NCBI GenBank assembly: GCA_035293105.1
Contig: DATDOV010000100.1
Location: 90,857-154,856, forward strand
Length of the DNA stretch: 64,000 bases
Direction: 5' to 3'
Origin: Blastocatellia bacterium
Lineage (GTDB): Bacteria; Acidobacteriota; Blastocatellia; UBA7656
Each line of letters begins with the position of its first letter. Position 1 is the stretch's first letter. Shown here piece after piece: positions 8,424 to 27,735 of this stretch. Both the position numbers and the translations under genes were made by a program. The notes below the pieces were generated by a model that did no database searches, was not told the DNA's origin, and was given only the letters and a program-made list of their open reading frames with translations.

Positions 8424-8543
8424 AGTGAGCCGACTCCGGACGCGGAGAGGATCGGTGGGAGTCCGAATGAAGCCGACATGTTCGACAGGCCACACCAAGT
8501 CCCGAGACATCGCTCGGCCGAAGTTGATGGGCTAACCAGCGCA

Positions 8544-8618
8544 GCAATGAGCCACCTGCCCGCGCGTCACAAAGAGCCGTGATGGCTGTCATAGATTCCC
8601 TCAAAGCCAAATCTCTAG
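8544..8618. repeat. direct repeat, copy 1 (~76 bp) upstream of TPR gene
   Basis: gcaatgagcc..ccgcg.gtcac...agccgtgatggctgtcatagattccCtcaaagccaaatctctag. It is ~85% identical to 11344-11421, and the 45-bp core differs by a single base. Confidence 0.6.
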
Positions 8619-11161: not shown

Positions 11162-11343
11162 AACGCGATCAACATTATTGGCGAGGATTGCGTGGAACAT
11201 GATGGAGCGCGCCAAAGCCGTGACTTTCACCGGGAAGTAGCCGTCAGGCTACTTGCGCGGATTCATACTATGGGCTTGGTGCGTCGGGGCAATTCGAGCA
11301 TCTGGAATTCAGTTACTAACCCTGGATCTCGCTTGCCGGCGTG

Positions 11344-11421
11344 GCAATGAGCACCCACGCGCCCGCGAGTCACTGACAGCCGTGATGGCTGTCATAGATT
11401 CCATCAAAGCCAAATCTCTAG
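11344..11421. repeat. direct repeat, copy 2 (~78 bp) downstream of TPR gene
   Basis: Matches 8544-8618. It lies in the convergent intergenic region between the TPR gene and the STAND NTPase gene. Confidence 0.6.
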
Positions 11422-11504: not shown

Positions 11505-13481
11505 TCAACGTTGAGAGTCTACAGGTCGCACCGGTCCGCCCGTCACGATCTCCCTTATCTTTCTCACTTCCGCTTCAGCCTTATTCAACTCGTCGTAGGA
11601 AGATTTGCGGAGGGCGAGGTAACTATTGCAATCCACGGGCAATCGATACGCGCTCTTCAGACGATTTATTTCGCCTTCGGCCCTCAATCCTTGTTGCTCT
11701 ATTTGTCTCGACAGTTGTCTCAATCTGTCCACCTCAGCGACCATTCTCATTTCATCCCGTCCATTGGTTGCATCGGCTATTGCCTCGTCTCTTTCTTGCT
11801 CAAGCGCCGCCGCCTTGGTAGTCAGCGCACTCACCTTGCCGTCAAGTTCTTTCCTGGCCTTCTCAGCCTCCTGGTACGCCGCCAGCGCTGCCTCCTCCGC
11901 AAACAATGCGTCCGCACGCCCCATTTCCGCAAACGCCCTCGCATCGTCGGCTTTCTTCACGAGGTCGTCCCGCACCGCCTTCTCGTACGCGGCCTGACCC
12001 CTCGCCTCGATTTCTTGACGTGCCGAGTCACGATCAGCAAGCGCATCTCTAACTTCGGTTCTAGCGATAGCCGCCTCAGTCCTAGTTTGAATCACCAGGA
12101 CGGCCACTGAAGCTATTACGAGAGCGGCCATTAGACAGATACCAACCAGCCAGTACAACCGTCGTCTCCTGACTCGGTCCGCTTCCTCAAGTCTACGGCG
12201 CTCGATCTCCGCCAGTCGTTCCACCTTCTTTTGACTTATCCATGGAACGAGAAACTCACTGACGATGTCATAGAAGTAGGTATTGTACCGTCGTTCCCGA
12301 CGGACAAGTTTGGTGTCCTCCACCAAGGCATTCAAAGCAGCTTTCAACCGGCCTTCAGGGATGTTCTCGCCGTCAGGCGCCCGACCGATCAGGTCTTCTT
12401 CGGAAACGACGTTGCGTGTACCGGCGGCGGTTACGAGGCGGCTTAGCAAAGCTACAGCCGGGTCTCGGAGATCATCTGCACGACGCGAGCTGTCGCTGGC
12501 TAACCGGGCACCGGAAAGCAACGCCATGGCCGGACTCGGCGGATCACCTGCAAGCTGGTTAAGAGCGTCCGATAGATAGTCCTCCAGAAGACCCTGAACG
12601 CCTCTCTGTTTGAACAAGCCTCCGGGGTCGGGGGACTCCCACAGCCTTCGGCAGGCAATCTGAACCTCGGACAAGCTGAGCGCCCCGGATTCCGTTCGCT
12701 CATCAATGGCGGCTGCCAAATCCTGAGCCAGTTCCGGTGAGAGTTCCGCCCTAAAGCTCCCTGGGAACCTCTCGAAAGGTCCACGGATAATGTTATCCAA
12801 TGCCTTCGTACGCAGCGTCGTTAGCCGCAGGTATTGATCCGGCAATTCGGGGCAGAGCACGAATAACTTCGTGAGCTTCGCCAGGTAGTCTTCCCTGAAT
12901 GTGAACAGGAGCTTCACCCCAAGCCGCGGGTCGCGCATCAACTCGACCACAGCCTGGAGAATCGCCTGCTGCGCGGCTTGAGCTTCTTTCAAAGCCTCGC
13001 CTCGCGGGGCTTCCTCGAACAAGGTGACGAACTCTTCAAACTGGTCGAAGATCAACAACGGTTGCCGGTCGGCCGCTGCGGCCCTGAGCTTCTCCATGAA
13101 AGCGCTAATAGAGAGCACGATGCGCGGGCGCTCCTCGTCATCGGCGAAGACCGACGGCAGGAACGGTGCCTTGCCGTCGCCGGGAATCGAGATGCGCTCG
13201 ACGACGATCTCCTCATTGCGGGGAGGCTGAACGCGTAGTCTTTCCGGCGTAAAGCCCTCGGTGATCGTCGCTGGGATCAATCCCGCGTTGATCAGAGAAG
13301 ACTTGCCCGAGCCCGATTCGCCGTAGAACAACACGCCGCGATAGATCGTGACGTAGCGCAGCAGCTTCCTAGTTTCTTCCTCTCGCGCGAAGAAGATCGC
13401 TTGATCGGCATAGCGGAAGGAGTCGATTCCGCGGTAGGGCGACTCGGGCAGCGAAAGCGGCGCGGTTGCAGAGCTTGTCAT
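11505..13481 (-). CDS. nSTAND/NACHT-like P-loop NTPase with C-terminal transmembrane helix and long coiled coil
   Basis: The N-terminus PYRGIDSFRYADQAIFFAREEE...VLFYGESGSGKSSLINAGLIP (Walker A) and Walker-B-like LLIFDQFEEFVTLFEE are the pattern of bacterial STAND NTPases usually fused to WD40/TPR. Here aa ~447-470 form a TM helix (LYWLVGICLMAALVIASVAVLVI) followed by ~190 aa of heptad-rich coiled coil. The start overlaps the stop of the upstream SIR2 gene (ATGA). Confidence 0.75.
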   Translation of the reverse strand: MTSSATAPLSLPESPYRGIDSFRYADQAIFFAREEETRKLLRYVTIYRGVLFYGESGSGKSSLINAGLIPATITEGFTPERLRVQPPRNEEIVVERISIPGDGKAPFLPSVFADDEERPRIVLSISAFMEKLRAAAADRQPLLIFDQFEEFVTLFEEAPRGEALKEAQAAQQAILQAVVELMRDPRLGVKLLFTFREDYLAKLTKLFVLCPELPDQYLRLTTLRTKALDNIIRGPFERFPGSFRAELSPELAQDLAAAIDERTESGALSLSEVQIACRRLWESPDPGGLFKQRGVQGLLEDYLSDALNQLAGDPPSPAMALLSGARLASDSSRRADDLRDPAVALLSRLVTAAGTRNVVSEEDLIGRAPDGENIPEGRLKAALNALVEDTKLVRRERRYNTYFYDIVSEFLVPWISQKKVERLAEIERRRLEEADRVRRRRLYWLVGICLMAALVIASVAVLVIQTRTEAAIARTEVRDALADRDSARQEIEARGQAAYEKAVRDDLVKKADDARAFAEMGRADALFAEEAALAAYQEAEKARKELDGKVSALTTKAAALEQERDEAIADATNGRDEMRMVAEVDRLRQLSRQIEQQGLRAEGEINRLKSAYRLPVDCNSYLALRKSSYDELNKAEAEVRKIREIVTGGPVRPVDSQR

Positions 13482-14359
13482 AGCGGCATCTCCTCGCCCG
13501 TAACGGCACGGTACAGTTTCGGAAGGAAAGTCCAGACGTCCTGCGCGATGAACTTGACGTACTGCTCCTGGTCGGCCAATACCTTAACTAACAAGAGGTC
13601 GGGATGGGGATCCACGGAATACGTGTTCGGGCGGTTCGCTTTATCGATCCGCCAGCGCAGGGTCTTGAACAGCAGCCGGAGGTTGTAATCCATGAGGCTG
13701 TAACCCACGAACAACGTCGGCCAGCGCTTGAAGTTGTAGCGGAAGGTCTCCGGCACCGGGTGGTAGGGGTCCTTGTCGCTCATACGCAAGACGAACTGAA
13801 TGTAGTCTTCATCGGTGACGACGATGGATTCGGGTTTCTGGATATCGCCATGAATCTTGAAGACGAAAGGCCGCGTGCTGGTCGCGTCAGTGTAGTCGGC
13901 CGTCACGGTGTACTCTTCCTTGCTGTAGACGCCGATGTATGGGTCCTTTGCCGCGTCCCACAGCGCTCTTTCATAGAGTTGGTCGTAGTTGGTGGTGATG
14001 ACGAGCGGAAAGTTCAATCGCGCGAGCGCGCGAAGCACGGGCGAAGGCTTCTTCCCGACCTGCACAGCACTGACCATCTCTTCGACCAACTCGCGCCGCG
14101 AGCGTTTCGTCTCGTAGTACAGCGACACTCTTTGGAGATTGCCCGTGCTCTCGCGGGGGAACTGCTCGGCAAAGCCGCTCTTGGCGGCGAGCCGCTCGGA
14201 GAGCGCGCGGCCGAGCGGCGGGCGCTCGGATTCAGGGTAGCTGTACTTCGAACCTTCGGGCGGCGGGTAATGCACACCAGCTCCCATGAAGAGAATACAC
14301 TGACCGTTGTTCACCTTCTCGGCAATCGCAGCAATCGTCGCCTCGTCGGCATGCTCCAT
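13478..14359 (-). CDS. SIR2-like (SIR2_2 / DSR-ThsA-type) NADase-domain protein
   Basis: Motifs CILFMGAGV, NFPLVITTNYDQLYERA, FKIHGDIQKPESIVVTDEDY and LFVGYSLMDYNLRLLF are characteristic of the SIR2_2 family. The start was chosen at MEHADE (ATG 14359), with RBS AAGGAG 8 nt upstream. The longer ORF (to 14626) would overlap the vWA gene. Confidence 0.8.
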   Translation of the reverse strand: MEHADEATIAAIAEKVNNGQCILFMGAGVHYPPPEGSKYSYPESERPPLGRALSERLAAKSGFAEQFPRESTGNLQRVSLYYETKRSRRELVEEMVSAVQVGKKPSPVLRALARLNFPLVITTNYDQLYERALWDAAKDPYIGVYSKEEYTVTADYTDATSTRPFVFKIHGDIQKPESIVVTDEDYIQFVLRMSDKDPYHPVPETFRYNFKRWPTLFVGYSLMDYNLRLLFKTLRWRIDKANRPNTYSVDPHPDLLLVKVLADQEQYVKFIAQDVWTFLPKLYRAVTGEEMPL

Positions 14360-14538
14360 CGTAGTCCGCTCCTTCGTGACGGTCAGGTGACTTGCAATGA
14401 GATTTATGATTGCGCGGCGGATATCGACAGGGGTTACATCCGCGTCGTGGCTAATCCTACTACAAAAAGCAGCGTGACTGATAGTAGGGAGGAGGTGGCC
14501 GTCAAAAGGGACTCTGGGAATCGAGAGGTCCGGAGGAG

Positions 14539-16230
14539 TCAACGCTTCGCCCGCAGGACAACCACTTTGTCTTCGCCTTCCTTGACCTCGAAGTCTATGC
14601 GGTCGTACTCGCCCTTCTGCCTCCAACCGGTGACGCTGTATCGCCCGGGAGTAAAGGGGTACTTTTCGTTCGAGTTCCTGAAGATTCTCTCATTGCCGTT
14701 GGCTGTGCTGGCGAAGCACCGATCGGGTTTATCCGGCGTGCCATCGGCCTTCTGATAGACGAAGGTCACGTGGCCGACCGGAACCGTGATGTCGAAGTGC
14801 TGCTGCTTCTGGTCGGTCACCACGATCCCGGTCTTGACGTACGGTGTCAGAGCGTTGGGCAAACGCACATCGTAGACGCCGGGAAGCACAGTCTCGCCCA
14901 GCGTCATGTGCACGCGGTACCTCTTCTCGCCGTTTTGCCATAGCTCGTAGTTCTCGCGAAACCATATTCCCGAGCCCGACGCCACCATCTTCACCGTCAC
15001 CCGAACCGTGTGGGCCATGCCGAAGACGATTTCTTTGCGTTCTCCGGCGGCGATTGTTGCCGTCGTCGAGAGATCATTCGCAGCGTTAGGCCGCGCGCGA
15101 AACTCGTAGGCGCCTTCATCGACGAAGACCTCATCAAAATAGCGGAAACTGAAGACCTCTTTGCCGTCTTGAAAAGCATGGACCAGCGAGCCGCGCTGAT
15201 CCTCGCCCTGGTCGGTGAATCGCGCTCTCACGGTTGGCGGCGTGGGGACCTCGACCTTGACCACAGTCGCGCCGGTATCCGCGACTTGGACGCTCTTGGT
15301 CACGGGCCTGTACATATTGCCGTTAGCCGTCGGAACCCCGGCCGTCAGCGTGTACTGGCCGGCCTCGACGCGGCCGGCGCTGCTGCTTGTAACTTTGTAA
15401 AGGTCCCGGCCCTCGCGCGAGAGAACGCCGACGACTCTTATGCGGCTCCCCGCTGCGTCGACGCCCTGTAACCAGAATCCCGCGAGGGCTGCTTGCGCTT
15501 GCTTATGGATCTTCCCCATTTCATCAGCCAGCGTTAAAGCCGACTGGGCATCGTGATACTGGGTGCCTGCTGCGTTGGAGATGCACTCGAGGGTCTGTCG
15601 CTCTTTTTCGCCGAGTCCGAAGCCGACGACGTGAACCTTGATCTTCACGTTTTTGTTTTTCCACTCGCGGACCAGCGCGCACGGGTCGGCTTCGCAAGAC
15701 TCGATGCCGTCGCTGATGAGGATAATCTCGCCGGGCCGGTCGCCGAAATCTTTGAGGGCCTCAGCGAGGCTGTACGTTATCGGCGTTCTGCCAATCGCGT
15801 TTATTCGCTTGATCGACTCCTTGAACTGAGCGACGACTTTTTCGGGAGGGCCGAAGGGAATTAGAAGCTCAGAATCCGCGCAATCCTCTTTTCTCCGGTG
15901 GCCGTAGACTCGAAGCGCGAGGTCGTAACCGGGAAAATCCTTGGCGACGAAATCCTGGAGTACCTGTTTGGCCGCATCGATCCGGCGCGACTTGTCGGGC
16001 AAACGCGCCATCATCGAGCCCGACGCGTCGAAGATGATATAGATGCCGGCCGCTTTGTTTTCCTGCTGGGCAGCTTGAGCCGCAGAGTCGGGTGAGGGGG
16101 CATCATCGCTGCGCTTCTCAACTACCGGTGTAACCACCGCCGGGTTGTTGCCCGCGTCGCCTGACGGCGGAGCGGTGGAGCAACCGGCGATGGCGCATAC
16201 GACCGCGATGTAAATCAGTTCAATCTTCAT
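14539..16230 (-). CDS. von Willebrand factor A (vWA) domain lipoprotein with C-terminal beta-rich domains
   Basis: Lipoprotein signal MKIELIYIAVVCAIAGCS. vWA MIDAS-type start IYIIFDASGSM...LISDGIESCEADPC...VHVVGFGL. Confidence 0.7.
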   Translation of the reverse strand: MKIELIYIAVVCAIAGCSTAPPSGDAGNNPAVVTPVVEKRSDDAPSPDSAAQAAQQENKAAGIYIIFDASGSMMARLPDKSRRIDAAKQVLQDFVAKDFPGYDLALRVYGHRRKEDCADSELLIPFGPPEKVVAQFKESIKRINAIGRTPITYSLAEALKDFGDRPGEIILISDGIESCEADPCALVREWKNKNVKIKVHVVGFGLGEKERQTLECISNAAGTQYHDAQSALTLADEMGKIHKQAQAALAGFWLQGVDAAGSRIRVVGVLSREGRDLYKVTSSSAGRVEAGQYTLTAGVPTANGNMYRPVTKSVQVADTGATVVKVEVPTPPTVRARFTDQGEDQRGSLVHAFQDGKEVFSFRYFDEVFVDEGAYEFRARPNAANDLSTTATIAAGERKEIVFGMAHTVRVTVKMVASGSGIWFRENYELWQNGEKRYRVHMTLGETVLPGVYDVRLPNALTPYVKTGIVVTDQKQQHFDITVPVGHVTFVYQKADGTPDKPDRCFASTANGNERIFRNSNEKYPFTPGRYSVTGWRQKGEYDRIDFEVKEGEDKVVVLRAKR

Positions 16231-16355
16231 CGGACCCTCTGTTCGCTTGTCTTCCTTCGCAGTGGTTCGTCTCCGAATCAGTAGGCGCGACAACTTGGTG
16301 GATAAAAGCCAGTGTGAATAAACCGTAGTCGCGGCGCCGGCAAGCCCGCCGGGAA

Positions 16356-17730: not shown

Positions 17731-18768
17731 TCAAGGCTTCTGCGGCTGTCCTCTGAACCGCACCAGGTGGTTTCTGGCAAGGCCGCTGCCCGAAGTTATT
17801 TCCGCGACTGAGTACTTCTCTTCAACAGTGGTTACCCTGAGCGTGCCGACCTTTCGATCCGGCGTGCCGAGCGTCTTTCCGGTCTCAGGATCCACGAGGG
17901 GCGGCTGCTGATGATAGACGTCAAACTCCATTCCAGGGCGAATGCCTTGTTCCGATCCGGCGTTGATGTAGACAAGCCCCTCGCGCACGTCGATGACGCG
18001 TCCCGACCACGGGACCGCCTTCATTCCCGAGACGATCGCCGCCACGGCGTTTTCGATTGCCTCGCGCGAGGCGTGGCCGAGCGGCGTGTTCTTGAAGCCC
18101 GACACGCTGAACTCCTGATCGCGGCGTGTAAGCTCCGCGCTGGCGCCCGTCATCGACGCCTTCCCCTCCGCGCGTTGTGAGAAGATCACTTCGCTGGTTA
18201 CCGCGTCGACGAGCCGGATGTCGAGGGCCACCATCGCCGTCACCCGGTCCGATTTCGCCTTCAGTATCTTTATCGGTTTGAAAGTGCCGCCGATCGATGT
18301 CTGGTTGTAGGCGAACTCCGTTATGTCACCGGTGATGAGGGTCTGCGCCCCGATGACGCGGCCACTGGCGGCTGCCGTTTCCTTGTTGACCCGCCCCGAA
18401 GCGCCGAAGTCCTGCTCGCCGGTTACGTCCTTGATGGATGCGCGCTCGACGACGATGAACCGGCCCGTCTTCACCAACTCGGTCGTGAGCATCTCGGTGA
18501 GCCCAAGCGCAAATTCAGCCGGGGGGGGAAGCGCGATGGTCGTGCTGCGAGAATCACGGTCCTCTTTGACATACTCCCTGAAGGCGGTGCCCGAGATGCT
18601 CATTACCGCGATGCGCAGCTTCGGGCCGGTCCAGGGCGGCTGTACTTCCTTCTGCCCGAATGTCGCCGGCGGAAGAAACGCCAGTAGACAAAGGGTCGCC
18701 GTGGCACAGGCCATAAGCTGAAAGTTGCCGGTACGGTCGATTCCTGACCTGTCGAGCATTCGATTCAC
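17731..18768 (-). CDS. CsgG-like (curli-secretion-channel family) lipoprotein with extra C-terminal domain
   Basis: LTEMLTTELVKTGRFIVVERASIKDV...ASGRVIGAQTLITGDITEF...VALDIRLVDAVTSEVIFS matches the CsgG-family core pattern. Signal peptide present. Confidence 0.55.
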   Translation of the reverse strand: MNRMLDRSGIDRTGNFQLMACATATLCLLAFLPPATFGQKEVQPPWTGPKLRIAVMSISGTAFREYVKEDRDSRSTTIALPPPAEFALGLTEMLTTELVKTGRFIVVERASIKDVTGEQDFGASGRVNKETAAASGRVIGAQTLITGDITEFAYNQTSIGGTFKPIKILKAKSDRVTAMVALDIRLVDAVTSEVIFSQRAEGKASMTGASAELTRRDQEFSVSGFKNTPLGHASREAIENAVAAIVSGMKAVPWSGRVIDVREGLVYINAGSEQGIRPGMEFDVYHQQPPLVDPETGKTLGTPDRKVGTLRVTTVEEKYSVAEITSGSGLARNHLVRFRGQPQKP

Positions 18769-19323: not shown

Positions 19324-19731
19324 TCATTCTTCCTCCTGGATGATGATCTTGGGCGTTACCAAGAGGACCAGGCATTTGCTTCTGGTTTCAGAGTTTCCCT
19401 TGTTGAAAAAGATCCTCTGGATATAAGGAATCTTGTCGCAGACTATCTCGACATCGTGCTTGCCTCCCAGAGGCTTTCCGGTGCCGGGATGCCGGACATT
19501 GATGGCTCGGAACAGAAACACCTTGTTGTGCTCGGTTATGGTATAGCCGTTCACGCGCGCGTCGTTTGTCAGGTCGACGGTCTTTCCCTTCTCCTCTCTC
19601 TGCGCAGCCGGTCCGGCGACGTGGGCAGCGGCCGTCCAGGTAGCCACAGAGAAGACCATCAAAGACGCGATTGCGATTAAACAACTCGATGCTCGAAAAA
19701 CGGCGTTTGCCGTCTTGCTACTATTTTTCAT
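19324..19731 (-). CDS. small exported protein with secretin-like C-terminal motif
   Basis: Signal anchor. C-terminal DKIPYIQRIFFNKGNSETRSKCLVLLVTPKII resembles the secretin C-domain signature (PvLgdiPvlGwLFrs....tELlifiTPrIv). Confidence 0.45.
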   Translation of the reverse strand: MKNSSKTANAVFRASSCLIAIASLMVFSVATWTAAAHVAGPAAQREEKGKTVDLTNDARVNGYTITEHNKVFLFRAINVRHPGTGKPLGGKHDVEIVCDKIPYIQRIFFNKGNSETRSKCLVLLVTPKIIIQEEE

Positions 19732-19996
19732 CTCATTCTCCTTACTCAGAGCCAAACGCCCAAAAGCCGTCTTTCCGCATCAGGATGGTTCGCCCGCTGA
19801 AAGCTACAAGAACAGCAGCGAGCGCAGTCGGCTGGGCTTCGCAAGCGTTTCACTGCGTTTCATCGAGTTGGGGACTCAACTGGCGCTCAACGTCAGCTTC
19901 GCCTTGAATGCCCCATCCTTCGTCGCATCAAGCGTGACCACAACTTTGCCTTTGCCCACGCCGCGAGTCTCACCACCGACCACAGGCAATGATGCC

Positions 19997-20398
19997 TTAA
20001 CAGTCCCCCCGCTTCTGTTCCAGTTTCAGGTTTACCTTGTACGTGCCCTCGTGTCTGGTAGACAGCGTGACCTCTACCTTGTCACCCTTTTTCAGGGCCG
20101 GACTAAAAGTTATGGTTGGCCTGGTGCTGTCATTCGTACCAGCCTTAACTGTGTAGGCGGTGGTCAATTGACCATTGATCTTAACTTCCAAGACCGTCAT
20201 CCCACCCGTGTCCACGCCACTTGGCTTCGATATTTTTCCGCAGTTAGTGCCGTCTGCGGCGGCCGTGGCCGAAGCCGTGGCCGTGCCCGAAGCAAAAGCT
20301 TCCTTCACCCCGAGGGCCAGAACGACGACGCCGACCATCAACAACGCGCCCATGGATCTTCGAGTGCTCACCGAACTACTCTTGATTGTTCGTTTCAT
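19997..20398 (-). CDS. small secreted protein (hypothetical)
   Basis: Start MKRTIKSS at 20398, with RBS AAGGAGA 7 nt upstream. Signal peptide present. Confidence 0.5.
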   Translation of the reverse strand: MKRTIKSSSVSTRRSMGALLMVGVVVLALGVKEAFASGTATASATAAADGTNCGKISKPSGVDTGGMTVLEVKINGQLTTAYTVKAGTNDSTRPTITFSPALKKGDKVEVTLSTRHEGTYKVNLKLEQKRGDC

Positions 20399-20552
20399 AC
20401 TGATTCTCCTTATCGACAGTTTTGCCGGAAAGACGCGCGACGGCCCTTTCTGCTTTACAGCCATCGCTTCGCCTTCGGTAGTCCAAAGTTTGGCCGAACT
20501 AACTTCAACCCCAAGCCGGCCTCGTCAAAAGCCGGCCAGTATAGCTGCACGC

Positions 20553-20640
20553 ATTTACCTTCAACAGACATTTTTGATGTTTGATGCCTGGCTGAACAGA
20601 TCATTTCTCGCCCTCAGGGAATCGGGATGACGGTGCTCAA
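20553..20640 (-). promoter_or_regulatory. conserved ~88-nt upstream element, copy A
   Basis: ~70% identical to 22733-22820. On the minus strand it ends in AAAATGTCTGTTGAAGGTAAA. It lies 155-240 nt upstream of the 19997..20398 start. Confidence 0.5.
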
Positions 20641-20662
20641 CGCGTCAAGCCACAATGAACAA

Positions 20663-22126
20663 TCACCTTCGCGGTGGATGAACCACTTCATACGAGATCG
20701 AAAAGGCGCCGGCGCTCAGGCCCCTGAGGTTCACTGGGATGCTCCCATTAGGGTCTCTTACGGTCAGCACTGCCTCGTCACCGGCGGTTCTCGCGCCGGC
20801 GACGTTCATGGTGACCACTCCGGGCGTGTTGTTCTTAAAGCGAATCTCTGAACCACGTCGCAACGATTGGTACTGTGCGGTAGCGGTTAGTTGTTCGCCG
20901 CGGCGAATCGTCGTCCGGGGCGCGCTCACCTCGAAGCTGAAGACGTTTGTCTCAAAGCTCTTGCTCTCACCATAGGGGTTGCGAACCCACGCTTCCTGCG
21001 GGCCGAGTTTGGGCGTATCCACGTAAGCGGTCACCTGGTTCACAGAGGAAGCCAGCGTCTCCTGAATCTGATTACCGACGACCACGTCGCATTGCCTGCC
21101 AAGACTGCTGCCAGGAATCGTGACCACGTCGCCTCGGCGGAGATCGGTAGGAATGTCATTGATGATTGGCCGGCTGACAACATCCGGCGCCGGTCCAGGC
21201 AGCACGCGGGTCTGAGTGCGCGCTATCTCTTTGCCGGTGGAATCGAACACTCGCACAATTGCCGTGGTAGCCGTCGTCAGCCTGGCCACGGAGTCGGGAA
21301 GCGAAAGTAATGCGCCGCCACGCTGATCAGTTTTAGCCTCGGCGGTTTGTCCGGCTACTTCCGTAGTTACGACGCAGCCCTCAAGCGTGCGCGGGCCGCG
21401 AACCGTCGTGGTTGCGACTTCGTCAGCGTAAACCTCTCCCGACACGAAGATCGCCGGCTGGCCGATCAAAGCAGTTTTCGAGTTTTCTGCCGGCGGCAGC
21501 AAGACCAGAGTGTAGTCACCTTTGTCGATCTTCTTCTTGTTTGCCTCGTTGAGTTGGTCGTACCACTCCTGGCGCCGCTTCTTGAGCTCGTCGATCTCGC
21601 CTTTGGATAGTCCGGTCGTTTCGGCGTTCTTGATCTCGAGGTCGTAGGCTTCGATTTCGTTGATAGCGGCCCCTTTGTCGTCGGTGTACCATTTGCCGTC
21701 GGCGGCTTGCGCGCCGTGGCCGCCGATCTCGTGGATCTTCGTGGACGCAAGCCAGCCGATTGAAGGGGTTTTGCCATCAGTCGGATCAAAGAAGGCCGGT
21801 TCACCTATGGTCGTCTTGACCTTCTTCTTGTCGTCGCCCGCGCGTACCGTCTCGCCTTCTCCTTCTACGTCCGGATCGTAAGATGGCTCTTCGCTGAGAT
21901 TGCCCGATGGGATCTTGTAATGCTTGTCCGTCAACTGGATGAGCTTGTTCTTGGCGTCCTTTATCTTGGCGGCGTCACCGTCCTTGAGGGCTTTCTGAAC
22001 TTCGTCCATCGCCTGCTGGAGTTCTTTCATTTGCTCCGCGCTCGGTTTGACTTGCGCGGACGCACCAAACGCCACTGCCAGCGACAGCCCTACGACAGCG
22101 AATAACTTCAAGGCAACTCTTAACAT
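20663..22126 (-). CDS. secreted protein, 487 aa (hypothetical, beta-rich C-terminal half)
   Basis: Signal peptide MLRVALKLFAVVGLSLAVAFGASAQ. No recognisable catalytic motif. Confidence 0.5.
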   Translation of the reverse strand: MLRVALKLFAVVGLSLAVAFGASAQVKPSAEQMKELQQAMDEVQKALKDGDAAKIKDAKNKLIQLTDKHYKIPSGNLSEEPSYDPDVEGEGETVRAGDDKKKVKTTIGEPAFFDPTDGKTPSIGWLASTKIHEIGGHGAQAADGKWYTDDKGAAINEIEAYDLEIKNAETTGLSKGEIDELKKRRQEWYDQLNEANKKKIDKGDYTLVLLPPAENSKTALIGQPAIFVSGEVYADEVATTTVRGPRTLEGCVVTTEVAGQTAEAKTDQRGGALLSLPDSVARLTTATTAIVRVFDSTGKEIARTQTRVLPGPAPDVVSRPIINDIPTDLRRGDVVTIPGSSLGRQCDVVVGNQIQETLASSVNQVTAYVDTPKLGPQEAWVRNPYGESKSFETNVFSFEVSAPRTTIRRGEQLTATAQYQSLRRGSEIRFKNNTPGVVTMNVAGARTAGDEAVLTVRDPNGSIPVNLRGLSAGAFSISYEVVHPPRR

Positions 22127-22145
22127 TGCTGGGCCTCCTTTGTTC

Positions 22146-22640
22146 TCACTTGATGGAGAACTTCACAGGGGTTGACTTCAATCGCCCCTTCCACGCCGGC
22201 GGCAGTTTCAGCGCGGGCGGCGCGTCCTGTTTGTTCTCGTAGAACGCCGTGACCGTGTACTCGCCCGGCGTTTCGAACGTGTGTGAGCGCGCGAGATTGT
22301 AAAGCCTGCCAAAAATCTGCTTGGTCTCGAGGGTCATGAACTCGCGGCTTTCGAAGCTCTCTCGGATGCGCGCTTCGAAAGGGACCAGCTTGCCGTCAGG
22401 CCCGGTTATCTGGAAGAAGATCTCATGCGGGCCGATCGGACGATTCACCAATAGTCGTCGGTTGATGACAACGTCGGTCGGGCTGAGGTTCTCAATCAAG
22501 ACCCGAGCGATGATCGGCTCGCCTGCGCTGTACTGAGTCTCTTCGAGTTGAAGCGTCAGGCGGAGTTCGGGCGCTCTTGCTTGAAAAGAACTTCCGGCCA
22601 CGCTTGCCGCAAGAAACGCTATGGAGATCAAAGCTTTCAT
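22146..22640 (-). CDS. secreted protein, 164 aa (hypothetical)
   Basis: Signal peptide MKALISIAFLAASVAGSSFQA. Confidence 0.5.
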   Translation of the reverse strand: MKALISIAFLAASVAGSSFQARAPELRLTLQLEETQYSAGEPIIARVLIENLSPTDVVINRRLLVNRPIGPHEIFFQITGPDGKLVPFEARIRESFESREFMTLETKQIFGRLYNLARSHTFETPGEYTVTAFYENKQDAPPALKLPPAWKGRLKSTPVKFSIK

Positions 22641-22732
22641 TTGGACCTACTTTCCACCTCATCCGACGAGGTTTGATGCGACGCCGCGGAGTAGCGGACC
22701 GTCATCGCCACGACCAGCCGGAAAACTCCGCT

Positions 22733-22820
22733 GTTTATCTTCAACAGACATTTTCTCTGTTTGGGCCTCGGCGCAAACGGATTCTTTCTCACCTCAGGGA
22801 ACGACAATGACCGTGCTCAC
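22733..22820 (-). promoter_or_regulatory. conserved ~88-nt upstream element, copy B
   Basis: Aligns with copy A, including AAAATGTCTGTTGAAGATAAA and TGAGCACGGTCAT...TTCCCTGAGG. It lies 95-180 nt upstream of the 22146..22640 start. Confidence 0.5.
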
Positions 22821-23150
22821 GTAAGGCCCACCCGCCGTTTGCGTGAGCTTGGCGTTTCCCCTGTAGATCGTCTTCGAGCTTCCGGAGCCCACCTCAGCCC
22901 TGGCGATCGCCCTGCACCTGGTTGTATCAATCGCGCCGCAAGCGGCACGGATGACGAGGGTCACGTATCCGCGGCCGTCTGTTCGTCCGCTGACCGACCC
23001 CGTTTTGCAATCGCAGCCGTCCCCGTCCACGCTCACCTGAACCGTCGTGCCTTCGGGCAGCGCTGAATTGCCCGCCTTAATCCTAACCGTCGCATCTCCA
23101 CCTTCGATAAACAGACCCACGACGATCAGGCATATGAGCGCCAGCTTCAT
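22794..23150 (-). CDS. small secreted Cys-containing protein (hypothetical)
   Basis: Signal peptide MKLALICLIVVGLFIEGGDA. RBS GAGAGGG. Confidence 0.45.
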   Translation of the reverse strand: MKLALICLIVVGLFIEGGDATVRIKAGNSALPEGTTVQVSVDGDGCDCKTGSVSGRTDGRGYVTLVIRAACGAIDTTRCRAIARAEVGSGSSKTIYRGNAKLTQTAGGPYVSTVIVVP

Positions 23151-23204
23151 ATCGCCCTCTCGTCACGTACAACAGACAAATCTGACGACCAGGCCGGGAA
23201 TCGC

Positions 23205-26051
23205 TCACCGGTGATTGCCGGCCAGTACGAACGGCGCCCAGTAACGAGGGTGGGAGAGCTCTCTGCGGTTGCCCGCTTCGACGAACGGAAGCTCGCCTCT
23301 GATCATCGCCCTCTGGGTCTCGGCGAGGGCCTCGCTCGTTTCTTTCGTTTGCAGGTTCTTGTAGAAAGCCTTCATGAACTCGGTCGTTGGCCGGTCGCTG
23401 ACGGGCAGAAGGCTGGCCATCACGCTTCTGGCTCCCGCGTGCAGGAACGCTTCGATCAGTCCGATGCGGTCTGCTTCGGCCAGCTCGTCTCCGGTGGATG
23501 AATAGCTCTGACCGGTTTGGCAGGCCCCGAGCGTCACAAGCTCCGCTTCGAGCCCCAGATCGAGTATTTCGCGGGCCGTCAGGTTGCCATCGTCTTCGAC
23601 TGTGCTCTGGAGCTTCAGCCGGCTCAGCAAGGGCATCTCGGGCTCGGAAACGGCGTGCGTGGCAAGATGAACGTACTTGAAGTGCGGAGCAAGCTGTTTC
23701 AACTCGCTCTCGCTTGCTTCCTGATCGCTGCGCGTGTCGCCCCCGAACATCCCGGCCACGGCGCGAGCTTCTTCAACGGCGAACTCAAGCGGCAGTAGCT
23801 CCGGTTCGTCCGATTCGTTCCTCCCGAAGCTGAGCATTCCGAGCTGCGGTCGAGTTGTTTGTCGCTGAGGTTGACGTGAAACGTTCGCCAGGTAGGTCGC
23901 GGACGGCGTGCGGAATATCGAATAGTCTTCGACCAGAAACCTGATTCCATCTCCTTCTGCCCGAGCCAGCGCAGCAAAGGGAAGATCGTGAAGCGAGCCA
24001 AATGGAACGACTCCCAGCCGGCGAATGCCCGCGAGCGAGCCTGTTCGCTCGATCGGCTCAATCAACGAGCGATGCAGATCTTCGGCAACGGGCTTCCAGT
24101 CAAATCCCCCTCGATCATCCTGCGAACCATCGAATATCAGCGAGCGGAATAGCTTCACCTTGGACGACAGGTTGGTCCTGGTGACCGGTAAAGCTACGCT
24201 TGCACAAGTCGATCGAGTGATGACAAGCGCGAAGACCTTCTCGCCCGCGAACACGTATTCGACCAGCGCGGTGTCGGGGCTCAAAGCGCTCTGCGCAGCT
24301 TCAAGCTCGACCGGCTGCGCTTCGCGAACAAGCCTGTATCGTGGCTCGTTCAACACCGATCTCAAAGTCTGGTCTTCATAGTCGCTGTAGGCCCGCCGAA
24401 GCCGCGCTCTCATCTCAGCGCTGCCTTCGCCCTTGAAGCTGTTGAAAGCCTTTTCGATCCGCGACAGCGCCTCTTTTTCCTCGCCAGCAGGCCGCGCGTT
24501 GGATTTCTTCTCGCTCAGTTGCAGCACGAGATTTCTGAATGAGCTGTATCTCAACTGTTCAAGGAAGCGAAAGGCCAACTCCAGCTCCGGGCCGTTTCCT
24601 CCCCGGCCAAGCAAGAGTTCGAAGGTGCGGTCATACAACATTCTGCTCTGGCCCGAGACGAGTATCGTCCCGCTCGATCGAAACCGCTCCGATTGCATCT
24701 CTGCTGCTTCGGCCAGATAACTCAGAGCCTCGGTGCGCCGGCCCTGAAGCTCCATGAACTCGGCCATCAACAAACTGTGGCCAAGCGAGCGATCAGCGGC
24801 CTCCTCTTTCGCTCTGATGGTTTCGGCTTGGTCGAACAGCTCGCCCGCCTTCGGCATGTTGCCAAGCTGCATATACGCTTCCCCCAGGAACATCGTCGTC
24901 GTTCCGGTCGATCTGATGTCGGGATCGCCTATCAACCGCTCCAGCTCGAGCACCTTCTCAAAGTACTGGCGGGCAGTTTCAGCGTCCCCTTTGAGCAAGT
25001 GGCAATACGCCAGGCCGCCCAGGTACCGCTTGGCGTGAAATGGATTCTCGCGCTCTCGCTCGAGCACGCGATTGAGCAATCCGATAACCCGGTCGTACTC
25101 ACCCAGGCGCGTGTAGATGCTCGCCAGCACGTCTTCTTCTTTGGGGCCCAGGCCGTATCCGATTTGCCGGCTGATCTCGACGCTCTTCAAGTAGTATTCA
25201 CGCGCTTTTCTGTAATTGCCCATCCCCTCATACGAGCTGCCGAGGAAAAAGTAGGAATCGCAAAGCCCCGCCTTGTCGCCGACACGGAGCTTAAGCTCGA
25301 CGCTTTCATTCTGATATTTGAAGAACTGAAACAAGTCGCCTTTCAGCGAATGAACCAGCGCGATGTTGCAAAGCGTGATTGCGGCGCTGCGCCACTCGCC
25401 CAGCCGTCTGTATATCTCAAGCGCGGGATCGTAGTAGTCGGCAAGCGGGCGGTCGAGTTCACCCTTGAACCACCAGTAGACGACTCCGATATTGCGAAGC
25501 GCGTCAGCCTCGATGATCTCGTCGCCGGTTTCGCGTCCGATTACGAGCGCCTCCCCGAGGTGCTCGAGCGCCTTGTCCGACTTGCCTTTGAGGTGATAGA
25601 GCACGCGGCTCAGATCGATCAGCGCGTGGCCTTCAATCCGCTGGTCTCCGATCTCTCTCGCGAGTTCCAGGCTCTGGATGTGACGTTGAACGGCCGCATC
25701 GGCTTCGTTGGAATTAAAATGGTTGACTCCCGCGGCGTTGAGCACGCGAGCGCGCAGCCGCGCGTCGAGCGGCTCGTCGATCAGGCGGTGAATCTCCTGT
25801 TGAGACGCGGTGAATTCGCCGCGAAGCTGGTGGCACAGGGCTATCTCAAACCGCACGTCCGCGGCGCGCGGGTCGAGCATTAGCGCCCATCGCAGTCTCT
25901 CAAGGGCATCGTCGAGCCGCCACTCACGTTTGGCTTCGATGGCCTGAGCGAAGAGGTAGCTCGCGACGGGCTTGCGCATGAGGACCCCGGCTGCCGACAG
26001 GGTCACCGTTGCCGCGATGATTATGAGCCACCTGCGGATTCTTGAACTCAC
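23205..26051 (-). CDS. CHAT-domain (caspase-like) protein with N-terminal TPR array
   Basis: C-terminal HLATHAVSE...LVTLGACQTGQS supplies the His/Cys dyad of the CHAT peptidase fold. Many TPR-like repeats in the N-terminal ~600 aa. GTG start. Confidence 0.75.
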   Translation of the reverse strand: MSSRIRRWLIIIAATVTLSAAGVLMRKPVASYLFAQAIEAKREWRLDDALERLRWALMLDPRAADVRFEIALCHQLRGEFTASQQEIHRLIDEPLDARLRARVLNAAGVNHFNSNEADAAVQRHIQSLELAREIGDQRIEGHALIDLSRVLYHLKGKSDKALEHLGEALVIGRETGDEIIEADALRNIGVVYWWFKGELDRPLADYYDPALEIYRRLGEWRSAAITLCNIALVHSLKGDLFQFFKYQNESVELKLRVGDKAGLCDSYFFLGSSYEGMGNYRKAREYYLKSVEISRQIGYGLGPKEEDVLASIYTRLGEYDRVIGLLNRVLERERENPFHAKRYLGGLAYCHLLKGDAETARQYFEKVLELERLIGDPDIRSTGTTTMFLGEAYMQLGNMPKAGELFDQAETIRAKEEAADRSLGHSLLMAEFMELQGRRTEALSYLAEAAEMQSERFRSSGTILVSGQSRMLYDRTFELLLGRGGNGPELELAFRFLEQLRYSSFRNLVLQLSEKKSNARPAGEEKEALSRIEKAFNSFKGEGSAEMRARLRRAYSDYEDQTLRSVLNEPRYRLVREAQPVELEAAQSALSPDTALVEYVFAGEKVFALVITRSTCASVALPVTRTNLSSKVKLFRSLIFDGSQDDRGGFDWKPVAEDLHRSLIEPIERTGSLAGIRRLGVVPFGSLHDLPFAALARAEGDGIRFLVEDYSIFRTPSATYLANVSRQPQRQTTRPQLGMLSFGRNESDEPELLPLEFAVEEARAVAGMFGGDTRSDQEASESELKQLAPHFKYVHLATHAVSEPEMPLLSRLKLQSTVEDDGNLTAREILDLGLEAELVTLGACQTGQSYSSTGDELAEADRIGLIEAFLHAGARSVMASLLPVSDRPTTEFMKAFYKNLQTKETSEALAETQRAMIRGELPFVEAGNRRELSHPRYWAPFVLAGNHR

Positions 26052-26100: not shown

Positions 26101-26757
26101 TCACCGCTCGAATGAGAACTTGGATATCAGCGAAACGACCGCAACACCGTCGGGCGATTTGGCGGTCACGTACCAGAAGTAGCTCTTCCCGCTCTCGAAC
26201 CGCCCCGCCGCATTCATAACCGCGCGTTCCTCGATCGCAGTAACACTGACGAGGACATCGCCCTTTTCGTTCAACAGAGTAAGCGAATAACTCTCCGCGC
26301 CCTGGACCTTCGCCCAACGGAACTCAATAAGATCGGACGACAGTCTGGCCCCGGTGACAGGAGCCAGCAATTTGGGCGCGGTCGAGATTTGCTCTTCCTG
26401 GCGCAGGCGATCATTCGGAAGGCGTTCGGATGGGCCGATGAGAAGAACCGCCGACAGCCCTATCGCGAGTAGCACCGCCGCGGCGGCTCCCGCATACCGC
26501 ATCCGCGCGCCGAATACGAAAGACGGTCTCTTGATTCTCCCGCCCGGCGACATGGATCTAACGCGCGCCTTGAGCCAACGCGGAAGCGGCGCCGCCGCCT
26601 GCTCGGGTCTCGACGCGACGTAACCAATAGCGAGTCCACGGCAGCACGCGCGACAGCGGCCGAGATGAGTCTCGAACCTATCGCGCGCATCGTCGGCCAC
26701 CGATCCCGCAAGGTAGCTATTCATGTCTTCGTTGGTCAAGCAGTCCATCGCTGACAT
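26101..26757 (-). CDS. anti-sigma factor (zf-HC2 type) with TM helix and periplasmic domain
   Basis: N-terminal HLGRCRACCRG zinc-finger anti-sigma motif, a TM segment AAAAVLLAIGLSAVLLIG, and a beta-rich C-terminus. Confidence 0.65.
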   Translation of the reverse strand: MSAMDCLTNEDMNSYLAGSVADDARDRFETHLGRCRACCRGLAIGYVASRPEQAAAPLPRWLKARVRSMSPGGRIKRPSFVFGARMRYAGAAAAVLLAIGLSAVLLIGPSERLPNDRLRQEEQISTAPKLLAPVTGARLSSDLIEFRWAKVQGAESYSLTLLNEKGDVLVSVTAIEERAVMNAAGRFESGKSYFWYVTAKSPDGVAVVSLISKFSFER

Positions 26758-26788
26758 CCCTAAACAATTACAACAGACAAAACAGAGA

Positions 26789-27628
26789 TCACTTCACTGC
26801 GCGCTTCAGCTCTTTCAGCGCGTCCCTGAGCAGAATCTTGATCTCCTTTTCCGTCGCGTGAAGCACGCGGGCCGTATCCTTCAGGCTCAGCCCTTCTTCG
26901 TAGCGAAACTCGACGGCGAGTCGCTGGCGCGCCGTTAGGCACTCCATCGCCCGGTTCATCCGGGCTTCGGCTTCCCGTTCGAGCAACGCCATTTCGGGAT
27001 CGGTTCTGTAGTCGAGGAGCTGAACGGCGAACCCCGTCTCTTCGTCGACTTCATCGATTGAAACTTCACCACGCGCCCGAGCGAGGTTGCCCATCAGCCG
27101 CCAGAGTTTCTTTCGGCTCAAGAGGGAAAAAATGCGCTCGAGAGAATCCAGCACGGAGACGAGGTCGGTGTCGGTGTTGGTTTCCAGGTGCAACTGTTCG
27201 CGGATCGCCGAGGGAGTCAGCCCCTTCCAGAAGTAGAGCTCGAAGATGCGCTGTTCTCGCAGCGGCAGCCGCGTAATAGGCTTGAGCAGCCGTTTTCGTC
27301 CTTCTTCCGACCAGGCCCAGTTGATCGAGAGGTTCCTGACGACTTGAAGCAACCAGGGCGTCAACTCGCCGCTGTTGCCGGCATAACGAACCGATTTCAA
27401 CCTTCGAAAATCCTGCTCCGAGAGCTTTTCGCAGATGTAAACGAACCGGTCCATCGCCCGGTCGTAATCGAAGCCCTGCCGCTGAAGGAACGCGAATATG
27501 ACGTCGGAATAGCGATCTATGAAGACCTCCCACGCGCGCTGCGGGTCGGAGTGAAAGAGCGCGATAAGCTCCGCGTCAGGCGGCGTGGCAGCGACAATCG
27601 CGTCACCAGAGGCCTCGCTTGTCTTCAT
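26789..27628 (-). CDS. sigma-70 family (ECF-like, extended) RNA polymerase sigma factor
   Basis: Region-2-like LTPWLLQVVRNLSINW and region-4 HTH LTARQRLAVEFRYEEGLSLKDTARVLHATEKEIKILLRDALKEL. Confidence 0.65.
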   Translation of the reverse strand: MKTSEASGDAIVAATPPDAELIALFHSDPQRAWEVFIDRYSDVIFAFLQRQGFDYDRAMDRFVYICEKLSEQDFRRLKSVRYAGNSGELTPWLLQVVRNLSINWAWSEEGRKRLLKPITRLPLREQRIFELYFWKGLTPSAIREQLHLETNTDTDLVSVLDSLERIFSLLSRKKLWRLMGNLARARGEVSIDEVDEETGFAVQLLDYRTDPEMALLEREAEARMNRAMECLTARQRLAVEFRYEEGLSLKDTARVLHATEKEIKILLRDALKELKRAVK

Positions 27629-27735
27629 TATCGGCTAAGAATAGTCCGAGCGGCCTCGCCTGTCACCTCCGAACTGGCCGTCGAGCCGATGGCCGCAAGC
27701 GCCCGGCCCCTCAGATAGGTCCGATGTCTGCGGAC

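What the first reader, a model, noticed from the sequence alone, without database searches (positions are those of the whole stretch)
20553..22820. Conserved ~88-nt element repeated upstream of two secreted-protein genes
20553-20640 and 22733-22820 align over ~88 nt at ~70% identity. On the minus strand the blocks TGAGCAC.GTCAT, TTCCCTGAGG, GAGAAA and AAAATGTCTGTTGAAG.TAAA stay in the same order. Both copies lie 95-240 nt upstream of start codons of small secreted proteins, and copy B overlaps the last 27 nt of the preceding gene. Candidate functions are a shared promoter plus 5' leader (riboregulator), or a small RNA.
Basis: seen in the sequence. Interest (0 to 1): 0.6.

Follow-up and report, generated by a model that had tools for sequence, protein, structure and literature searches.

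The report
Duplicated gene junction carrying a regulon motif
The two 88-base copies are the duplicated junction left around a two-gene insertion, and only their last ~20 bases are kept by selection: a short control signal repeated before each gene unit of a sigma factor / protease gene cluster in soil Acidobacteria.

Summary
The repeat is real. Copies 20553-20640 and 22733-22820 are 57/88 identical without gaps, and identity falls to background outside them.

It is not one functional 88-nt element but three parts:
- **Left 27 nt:** the 3' coding end of a 118-aa gene (..STVIVVP*). It is intact in copy B and a frame-broken relic in copy A.
- **Middle ~39 nt:** drifting spacer, 44% identical.
- **Right ~21 nt:** AAAAWGTCTGTTGWAG, 20/22 identical.

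The right block occurs exactly four times in the 64-kb window. All four are on the sense strand and in intergenic regions of one cluster: sigma factor, zinc-binding anti-sigma, TPR-CHAT protease and secreted proteins. It holds the same positions in about 15 related acidobacterial clusters.

A closer relative lacks the two genes between the copies. That gene pair stands alone elsewhere, without the motif. The repeat is therefore a duplicated junction flanking an inserted module.

No conserved RNA fold and no Rfam match were found. The motif most likely marks the promoter (-10/start-site region) used by the cluster's own sigma factor. That step is inferred, not shown.

The parts
22733..22820 (-). 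Copy B of the 88-nt repeat: p118 3' end (22794-22820), spacer, then the core motif block.
20553..20640 (-). Copy A of the 88-nt repeat. Weak indel-containing similarity continues upstream to about 20652.
20614..20652 (-). Relic of a p118-type 3' coding end inside copy A. It reads ..LSTVIPIP* in a frame that is +1 relative to p487 and is broken by a 3-nt indel further upstream. Differences from copy B fall on wobble positions (ACC/ACG, ATC/ATT).
20554..20575 (-). Motif site 4 (in copy A): AAAAATGTCTGTTGAAGGTAAA, with GTCTGTTG at 20562-20569. PWM score 30.0 bits. It lies 163 nt before the p133 ATG.
22734..22755 (-). Motif site 3 (in copy B): GAAAATGTCTGTTGAAGATAAA, with GTCTGTTG at 22742-22749. 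PWM score 28.4 bits. It lies 101 nt before the p164 ATG.
23162..23185 (-). Motif site 2: tcagatttGTCTGTTGtacgtg, between the CHAT gene and p118. It lies 19 nt before the p118 ATG with a Shine-Dalgarno sequence in between. PWM score 26.3 bits. The block TCAGATTTGTCTGTTGTACGT is identical in relative L036.
26763..26786 (-). Motif site 1: tctgttttGTCTGTTGtaattg, between the sigma and anti-sigma genes. It lies 13-22 nt before the anti-sigma start. PWM score 22.6 bits.
26789..27628 (-). Sigma factor, 279 aa, with three helical domains. It matches TIGR02937 at 70 bits; region 4 is closest to FliA and ECF sigma factors. The predicted fold matches full-length SigB, sigma-28 and sigma-32.
26101..26757 (-). 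Anti-sigma factor, 218 aa. It has an N-terminal zinc-binding motif (C6, H31-x3-C-x2-C), one transmembrane helix and a small outer domain.
23205..26051 (-). TPR-CHAT protein, 948 aa, with an N-terminal membrane anchor.
22794..23150 (-). p118, a small secreted protein. Its last 9 codons form the left block of copy B.
20663..22640 (-). Inserted two-gene module: p164 (22146-22640) and p487 (20663-22126). It is absent from relative L036 and stands alone in L037 and L040.
22641..22700 (-). Native leader of the p164 module (TGACGGTCC..CCTCGTCGGATGAGGTGGAAAGTA). It is homologous to the leader of the stand-alone module in L040. This marks the left junction of the insertion.
19997..20398 (-). p133, a small secreted protein. 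It is the orthologue (58% identity) of the gene that directly follows p118 in L036.
27638..27666 (-). Sigma-70-type promoter-like site (GTGACA-17-TATTCT) just before the sigma gene. It is conserved in L016.

Best explanation
**What the repeat is.** The two 88-nt copies are the duplicated junction 'end of gene p118 + intergenic spacer + regulatory motif'. They now flank a two-gene module (p164-p487) that entered the cluster between p118 and p133.
- Copy B is the original junction, and its p118 end is still coding.
- Copy A keeps a decayed p118 end.
- Only the ~21-nt right block (WWWWWT-RTCTGTTG-WA) is under strong selection.

**What the right block is.** It is a cluster-specific cis signal placed before each transcription unit: anti-sigma/CHAT, p118, p164-p487, and p133 onward.

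**Proposed mechanism (inferred).**
1. The block is the -10/start-site-proximal part of promoters read by RNA polymerase carrying the cluster's own sigma factor. TGTC and TGTT resemble ECF-type -10 elements, and the conserved A two bases after the core is a candidate start point.
2. The membrane anti-sigma factor, probably acting with the periplasmic TPR-CHAT protein, releases the sigma factor.
3. All units then fire together, including the anti-sigma gene itself, which gives negative feedback.
4. Duplicating the junction let both the incoming module and the displaced p133 operon keep this signal.
For: **Shown**
- The repeat and its boundaries are real.
- Identity by segment is 74% (relic), 44% (spacer) and 91% (core block).
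- The left block is the conserved C-terminus GPYVSTVI(V/L)(V/I)P* of p118 orthologues in L036, L016, L017 and L041.
- L036 (p118 78% identical) has the order CHAT-p118-[motif]-p127-p136-p141, with no p164/p487.
- The p164-p486 pair stands alone in L037 and L040 with sigma-70-like sites upstream and no motif.
- The window leader 22641-22700 matches the L040 leader.
- Spacers of A and B are each other's closest relatives (z = 5.3, against 1.4-3.4 for orthologues).
- A PWM scan gives exactly 4 sites in 64 kb at 22-30 bits; the shuffle maximum is 15 bits.
- Across 253 kb of related loci there are 23 sense and 3 antisense hits, with about 1.6 expected per strand.
- Further sites occur at the same places in L041 (5 sites), L043 and L044.
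- The sigma / anti-sigma / TPR-CHAT triad is present in every locus that has the motif.
- The sigma protein is a true sigma-family fold.

**Inferred**
- The core ends 13-25 nt before start codons, with the Shine-Dalgarno sequence in between, at 15 or more sites. A promoter reading therefore works only if the core is the -10/start region.
- TGTT, TGTC and CGTC are known ECF -10 elements (PMC3426412).
- Multi-promoter regulons of a sigma paired with a TPR-CHAT anti-sigma are known (DdvS/DdvA; PMC11506125).
Against: - No second conserved block lies at a fixed distance, so there is no recognisable -35 box. There is only a loosely placed GAAAA..TTTTC-like A/T block 26-41 nt upstream. That is unusual for alternative-sigma promoters.
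- No motif lies upstream of the sigma gene itself. That gene has a sigma-70-like site instead, so the usual positive autoregulation is absent.
- No transcription start data exist.
- Sequence alone cannot separate a promoter from an operator or from a linear RNA site.
- The duplication mechanism is not resolved. It could be tandem duplication of p118 followed by replacement, or recombination with a donor that carried the junction.
Confidence: 0.6

Rival explanations
1. The core motif is an operator for a DNA-binding regulator other than the cluster sigma factor, for example a repressor sitting on or just after each promoter. The 88-nt repeat is still a duplication scar.
For: - The element is a single compact ~16-20 nt block with no bipartite structure.
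- Its position close to start codons fits a repressor site that overlaps a promoter.
- An upstream GAAAA..TTTTC-like block could be a second protein site.
Against: - The motif is not palindromic and not a direct repeat, unlike most operators.
- It is strictly strand-specific, with 23 sense and 3 antisense hits.
- No classical transcription-factor gene is conserved in the clusters, whereas a sigma / anti-sigma pair always is.
Confidence: 0.15
2. The core acts in RNA as a linear (unstructured) site within a long polycistronic transcript. Possible roles are a binding site for a translational regulator or small RNA, or a processing site that separates the units.
For: - The motif is always on the sense strand and always lies between genes.
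- At types 1 and 2 it sits immediately 5' of the Shine-Dalgarno sequence.
- The sigma and anti-sigma genes are only about 30 nt apart, so co-transcription is likely.
Against: - At copies A and B, and at the equivalent sites in L016, L017 and L041, the motif is 100-160 nt from the start codon. That is too far for direct control of ribosome binding.
- No RNA-binding protein gene is conserved in the cluster.
- The stand-alone p164 module's own promoter region appears to have been replaced by this element, which suggests it supplies transcription.
Confidence: 0.12
3. One reading: the whole ~88-nt element is a structured cis-regulatory leader (riboregulator) or encodes a small RNA.
For: - Copy B folds better than shuffled sequence (z = -2.88).
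- The element lies upstream of genes on the sense strand.
Against: - Copy A does not fold better than shuffles (z = -1.06), and its predicted pairs are in a different register.
- The consensus fold of five homologues is -1.36 kcal/mol, with 1 compensatory pair out of 13.
- There is no Rfam match at the gathering threshold or at E <= 1.
- No terminator is present.
- A third of the element is coding sequence of p118, and the middle is only 44% identical.
- Orthologous spacers vary from 33 to 50 nt.
Confidence: 0.06
4. The copies are ends or remnants of a mobile element (a MITE, an insertion-sequence end or an integron attC site) that carried p164-p487 in.
For: - Direct repeats flank a segment that is absent in a relative and found in unrelated contexts elsewhere.
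Against: - There are no terminal inverted repeats.
- No transposase or integrase gene lies in or near the segment.
- The stand-alone modules in L037 and L040 lack the repeat.
- The repeated sequence is native cluster sequence (p118 end plus cluster motif), not foreign DNA.
- A full-length pattern scan of 185,579 genomes gave only chance hits.
Confidence: 0.03

Closest known systems
DdvS/DdvA regulon of Myxococcus xanthus (ECF sigma plus transmembrane anti-sigma with a periplasmic TPR-CHAT domain; PMC11506125, PMC6061681)
   Same: - A dedicated sigma factor is paired with a zinc-binding, single-pass anti-sigma factor.
- A TPR-CHAT module sits on the outer side of the membrane.
- Several sigma-dependent promoters (P1-P4) head neighbouring operons.
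   Different: - Here the anti-sigma factor (218 aa) and the TPR-CHAT protein (948 aa, with its own membrane anchor) are separate genes.
- The sigma factor is a 279-aa three-domain protein, not a two-domain ECF.
- The controlled genes encode small secreted proteins, a CsgG-like lipoprotein and a VWA protein, not CBASS or CRISPR.
- The motif lies after the sigma gene, not before it.
- The sigma-dependence of the sites is untested.
ECF-type promoters, e.g. ECF41 TGTCACA-N16-CGTC/TGTT (PMC3426412)
   Same: - The core contains TGTC and TGTT, which are known ECF -10 tetranucleotides.
- A short 5' UTR with a ribosome-binding site follows, as described for ECF41 targets.
   Different: - No conserved -35 box lies at 16 +/- 1 nt.
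- Conservation is one contiguous ~16-nt block that includes an A/T tract.
Composite or extended -10 promoters of group-3 sigma factors (sigma-28 GCCGATAA, sigma-32 CCCCATNT). This comparison is from my own knowledge and was not tested here.
   Same: - The sigma factor here has a middle domain and a fold like SigB, sigma-28 and sigma-32.
- An 8-10-nt contiguous conserved block would fit a composite -10 region.
   Different: - The sequence is unrelated to any of those consensus elements.
- Those promoters still have a -35 element.
Promoter capture by segmental duplication around an inserted gene cassette (a general evolutionary pattern)
   Same: - Direct repeats of native sequence flank an inserted module.
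- One copy retains a pseudogenised gene end.
   Different: - There is no sign of a mobile-element mechanism.
- The event is old enough that the spacer has drifted to 44-72% identity.

Membership tests
Alternative-sigma-dependent promoter | A dedicated sigma factor (with anti-sigma) is encoded with the target genes. | tested here: met
   - The 279-aa sigma matches TIGR02937 at 70 bits and has a region-4 match.
- Its predicted fold matches SigB, sigma-28, sigma-32 and sigma-E.
- A zf-HC2 anti-sigma gene lies next to it.
- The triad is present in all motif-bearing loci.
Alternative-sigma-dependent promoter | The same motif, in the sense orientation, lies upstream of several units of the regulon and is rare elsewhere. 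| tested here: met
   - The window has 4 of 4 sites inside the cluster at 22-30 bits; the next best hit scores 8.4 bits.
- Related loci give 23 sense and 3 antisense hits in 253 kb.
- More sites occur in L041, L043 and L044.
Alternative-sigma-dependent promoter | Bipartite -35 and -10 boxes with a fixed spacer. | tested here: not met
   - The information profile of 23 sites shows one block from -6 to +9 and nothing above about 0.6 bit elsewhere.
- The k-mer test finds only a loosely placed GAAA/TTTC enrichment.
Alternative-sigma-dependent promoter | The geometry allows a start site upstream of the ribosome-binding site. | tested here: inconclusive
   - It is met only if the core is the -10/start region.
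- The core ends 13-25 nt before the ATG at type 1 and type 2 sites, which excludes a -35 role.
Alternative-sigma-dependent promoter | Mapped transcription start and dependence on the sigma factor. | not testable with these tools
   This needs 5'-end mapping, reporter assays or in-vitro transcription.
Structured cis-regulatory RNA or small RNA | Match to a described RNA family. | tested here: not met
   - Rfam 15 at the gathering threshold gives 0 matches in 64 kb.
- At E <= 1 the only hit over 20300-23300 is a spurious lncRNA match on the other strand.
Structured cis-regulatory RNA or small RNA | Conserved secondary structure supported by covariation. | tested here: not met
   - RNAalifold on 5 copies gives -1.36 kcal/mol with a covariation term of +0.76.
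- The two window copies fold in different registers.
Structured cis-regulatory RNA or small RNA | Own terminator (for a small RNA). | tested here: not met
   No terminator-like site lies in or next to either copy on the minus strand.
Segmental duplication flanking an insertion | The segment between the copies is absent in the nearest relative and exists independently elsewhere. | tested here: met
   - L036 lacks p164/p487, while p118, p133, p143 and p162 are collinear.
- L037 and L040 carry the pair in unrelated contexts.
Segmental duplication flanking an insertion | One copy carries a decayed fragment of a gene that is intact at the other copy, and identity drops to background outside the copies. 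| tested here: met
   - The relic LSTVIPIP* corresponds to STVIVVP* in p118, with an indel upstream.
- The flanks are 14/60 and 11/60 identical.
Mobile element (MITE, insertion-sequence end or integron attC) | Terminal inverted repeats or a palindromic attC core, a recombinase gene nearby, and many copies. | tested here: not met
   - No meaningful inverted repeats are found.
- No transposase or integrase gene lies among the neighbours.
- There are only two copies, and no true hits in 185,579 genomes.
DdvS/DdvA-type system | The anti-sigma factor is fused to a periplasmic TPR-CHAT domain. | tested here: not met
   Anti-sigma (26101-26757) and TPR-CHAT (23205-26051) are separate ORFs here and in all related loci.

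The most novel reading that the evidence does not exclude
The ~16-nt block WWWWWT-RTCTGTTG-WA may be the complete promoter signal, independent of a -35 box (a composite -10 through the start site). It would be read by a previously undescribed three-domain sigma factor family. That sigma would be controlled by a 'split' version of the DdvA system: a zinc anti-sigma factor plus a separate membrane-anchored TPR-CHAT protease. Genes would join or leave its secreted-protein regulon by copying the ~100-nt junction that carries the signal, and the window would have caught one such recruitment.
Probability: 0.3. Interest if true: 0.55.

Novelty: new member of a known kind. Interest (0 to 1): 0.36.

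Why it matters
**The repeat itself is ordinary.** It is a duplication scar with a pseudogenised gene end.

**What it exposes is useful:**
- It reveals a sharply defined, strand-specific 16-20-nt signal that marks every transcription unit of a widespread but unstudied acidobacterial cluster. The sigma family has more than 100 sequence clusters.
- This gives a ready, testable regulon definition for a sigma / anti-sigma / TPR-CHAT signalling system. Its only characterised relative is DdvS/DdvA.
- It also provides a clean example of how a foreign two-gene module is wired into an existing regulon by duplicating a promoter-bearing junction.

Tried and rejected
- **Rfam scans.** The whole window at the gathering threshold and the local region at E <= 1 gave nothing.
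- **Single-sequence folds of both copies, both strands.** The structures are inconsistent.
- **RNAalifold on five copies.** There is no consensus structure.
- **Exact-pattern scan of genome contigs with the 21-nt right block.** It returned 8 hits in unrelated, mostly AT-rich genomes, judged to be chance. Only the first (L008) was inspected before the script stopped; it lacked the rest of the element.
- **Paralogy of the neighbouring proteins.** The downstream genes p164 and p133 are not homologous. p118 and p133 are only marginally similar (E = 0.1).
- **Core as a -35 box.** Rejected, because the core ends 13-25 nt before start codons whose N-termini are fixed by the conserved zinc-ligand Cys (anti-sigma) or by the signal peptide (p118).
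- **Core as a sigma-70 -35 box TTGNNN with a -10 box 17 nt later.** There is no consistent -10 box, and the scan tool finds none at the copies.
- **Other readings by eye.** I considered sigma-54, IHF, CRP/NtcA-type palindromes, the Pho box, ops/RfaH-type sites and an RNase E site. None fits the consensus. These were compared from memory, not tested.
- **Short ORFs starting at the ATG inside the core (MSVEGK.. / MSVEDK..).** They are not conserved, and other copies have AAG instead of ATG.
- **-35 search with variable spacing.** Only a weak GAAA/TTTC enrichment appears.
- **Population variation.** Five contigs from other samples are 100% identical over 3.4 kb, so they carry no information.
Full report
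**1.

On the minus strand, 20553-20640 (copy A) and 22733-22820 (copy B) are 57/88 identical without gaps. Both ends of the pair show the same offset of 2180 nt (families D8 and D20).

Shuffled sequence gives none. Sixty bases on either side are at background identity, 14/60 and 11/60. Copy B overlaps the last 27 nt of the 118-aa ORF 22794-23150.

**2. The 88 nt are three different things**

- *Left 27 nt (74% identical).* In copy B this is the end of p118: ..GGPYVSTVIVVP, then the stop codon.
  - The same C-terminus closes the orthologues in L036, L016, L017 and L041.
  - Copy A reads LSTVIPIP-stop in a frame shifted relative to p487, which ends 22 nt upstream. Further upstream the similarity continues only with a 3-nt indel.
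  - Two of the A/B differences are synonymous third positions (ACC/ACG, ATC/ATT).
  - Copy A therefore holds a pseudogenised p118-type gene end. Because only the A side is free to drift, 74% identity needs no functional explanation.
- *Middle 39 nt.* It is 44% identical ungapped and 72% with one indel. Orthologous spacers in relatives are 33-50 nt long and barely alignable.
- *Right 22 nt (20/22 identical).* The sequence is AAAAWGTCTGTTGAAGRTAAA.

**3. The right block is a cluster-wide motif**

GTCTGTTGWA occurs exactly four times in the window. All four are on the minus (sense) strand and all are intergenic:

| Site | Position of first G of GTCTGTTG | Location |
|---|---|---|
| 1 | 26778 | between the sigma and anti-sigma genes |
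| 2 | 23177 | between the CHAT gene and p118 |
| 3 | 22749 | copy B |
| 4 | 20569 | copy A |

A weight matrix built from 23 non-redundant sites scores these four at 22-30 bits. The next window hit scores 8.4 bits, and the shuffle maximum is 15 bits.

Homologous clusters were fetched through p118, p164 and sigma homologues. In them the motif sits at the same places: after the sigma gene, after the CHAT gene and after the p118 homologue. L041 has five sites. Over 253 kb there are 23 sense and 3 antisense matches, against about 1.6 expected per strand.

The information profile shows one contiguous block: an A/T tract, a T, RTCTGTTG, then WA. No second block lies at a fixed distance. The only other feature is a weakly enriched GAAAA..TTTTC-like A/T block 26-41 nt upstream.

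**4. Why there are two copies of the whole junction**

The closer relative L036 (p118 78% identical) has the order CHAT - p118 - motif - p127 - p136 - p141. These are the orthologues of window p133 (58%), p143 (79%) and p162 (77%). L036 has no p164 or p487.

The p164-p486 pair (66-68% identical) stands alone in L037 and L040, between unrelated genes. There it has sigma-70-like sites upstream and no motif.

In the window, the 60 nt before the p164 ATG are homologous to the L040 leader, and homology to p486 ends at the p487 stop codon. The spacers of A and B are closer to each other (z = 5.3) than either is to any orthologue.

The simplest history is as follows. The junction 'p118 end - spacer - motif' was duplicated. 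Tandem p118 paralogues do exist, for example L017 p120 and p135. The p164-p487 module then came to lie between the two copies, leaving only the last codons of the second p118. No inverted repeats or recombinase genes point to a mobile element.

**5. What the motif most likely does**

*Genetic context.* The cluster begins with three genes:
- a 279-aa sigma-family protein (TIGR02937, 70 bits). Its region 4 is closest to FliA and ECF sigma factors. The AlphaFold model (pLDDT 79) matches full-length SigB, sigma-28 and sigma-32, and partly sigma-E;
- a single-pass zinc-binding anti-sigma factor;
- a membrane-anchored TPR-CHAT protein.

This triad is present in every locus that has the motif. The characterised parallel is DdvS/DdvA of Myxococcus. 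There, an ECF sigma factor held by a TPR-CHAT anti-sigma factor drives four promoters in neighbouring operons (PMC11506125).

*Geometry.* At sites of types 1 and 2 the core ends only 13-25 nt before the start codon, with the Shine-Dalgarno sequence in between. Those starts are fixed by the conserved first zinc ligand of the anti-sigma factor and by the p118 signal peptide. The core therefore cannot be a -35 box.

All sites fit if the core is the -10/start-site region. TGTC and TGTT are known ECF -10 elements (PMC3426412). The conserved A two bases after the core would be a natural start point. The 5' UTRs would then run from about 10 to 160 nt.

*Other supporting points.*
- The sigma gene itself has a sigma-70-type site (GTGACA-17-TATTCT), conserved in L016. 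The circuit would therefore be a constitutive sigma factor with sigma-dependent anti-sigma/CHAT (negative feedback) and secreted-protein units.
- The stand-alone p164 module's distal sigma-70-like promoter region is not carried into the window. The cluster motif now occupies that region.

All of this section is inference. No start site or sigma-dependence has been shown, and the missing -35 box is a real weakness.

**6. What it is not**

There is no evidence for a structured leader or a small RNA:
- Rfam finds nothing.
- The two copies fold differently.
- Five homologues give a consensus of -1.36 kcal/mol without real covariation.
- No terminator follows.
- The transcripts downstream of the two copies share at most about 12 nt.

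Small ORFs that start at the ATG inside the core are not conserved.

**7. Verdict**

The repeat itself is an ordinary duplication scar. Its conserved tail defines the cis signal of an uncharacterised sigma / anti-sigma / TPR-CHAT regulon that is common in Acidobacteriota, with more than 100 sigma sequence clusters. Interest is modest. It is best filed as a new member of a known kind.

Noticed in passing
window 8540-8618 and 11340-11421 (+): A second direct repeat of about 80 nt (90% identical over 67 nt: ..AGCCGTGATGGCTGTCATAGATTCCMTCAAAGCCAAATCTCTAG) flanks a single 826-aa TPR gene (8681-11161) next to a multihaem cytochrome gene. It may be another duplicated junction around an inserted gene, or a repeated regulatory element.
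   Followed up: partly
window 39668-39779 and 38787-38840: Two short tandem arrays lie on either side of ORF 38831-39676 (-): an 8-nt unit ATTGAGTC/ATTGGGTC repeated about 14 times, and a 7-nt unit TCCTAAA.
   Followed up: no
window 26789-27628 (-): The cluster sigma factor is 279 aa with three helical domains. Pfam sees only region 4 (two region-4-like stretches). The predicted fold matches group-3 sigma factors (SigB, sigma-28, sigma-32) over its full length, although NCBIfam files it under the ECF superfamily. The family has more than 100 sequence clusters, almost all from Acidobacteriota metagenomes.
   Followed up: partly
window 27629-27666 (-); L016 3455-3492: The sigma gene is preceded by GACA-17-TAT(T/C)CT-TAGCCGATA-ATG, conserved between the window and L016. 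The -10-like box ends only 9 nt before the ATG, which suggests a nearly leaderless sigma mRNA. The string GCCGATAA also equals the sigma-28 -10 consensus (from memory), probably by coincidence.
   Followed up: no
window 11505-14626 (-): A SIR2_2 gene (382 aa) and an nSTAND1 NTPase gene (658 aa) sit as an overlapping pair at the far end of the cluster. This looks like a defence-type pair unrelated to the sigma regulon.
   Followed up: no
window 19324-19755 (-); L018 6126-8000: The small protein p143 is 36% identical to the C-terminal ~120 residues of a 624-aa secretin-like protein in L018. Together with the CsgG/HfaB-like lipoprotein (17731-18768) and the VWA protein (14539-16293), this hints that the regulon builds or exports a surface structure.
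   Followed up: no
L041 14428 and 14512; L041 14665-15100: In relative L041 two motif copies lie 84 nt apart after the CHAT gene. They are followed by an unannotated, possibly frameshifted gene of the p134 family. L041 has five motif sites in all, which shows that the regulon's composition is fluid.
   Followed up: partly
window 20590-20606 and 22770-22786 (-): The middle block of both copies (GAGAAATGATCTGTTCAG and GAGAAAGAATCCGTTTGCG) resembles a degenerate second copy of the core (GAGAAAATGTCTGTTGAAG) about 32 nt upstream. It could be an old internal duplication or a weak second site.
   Followed up: no
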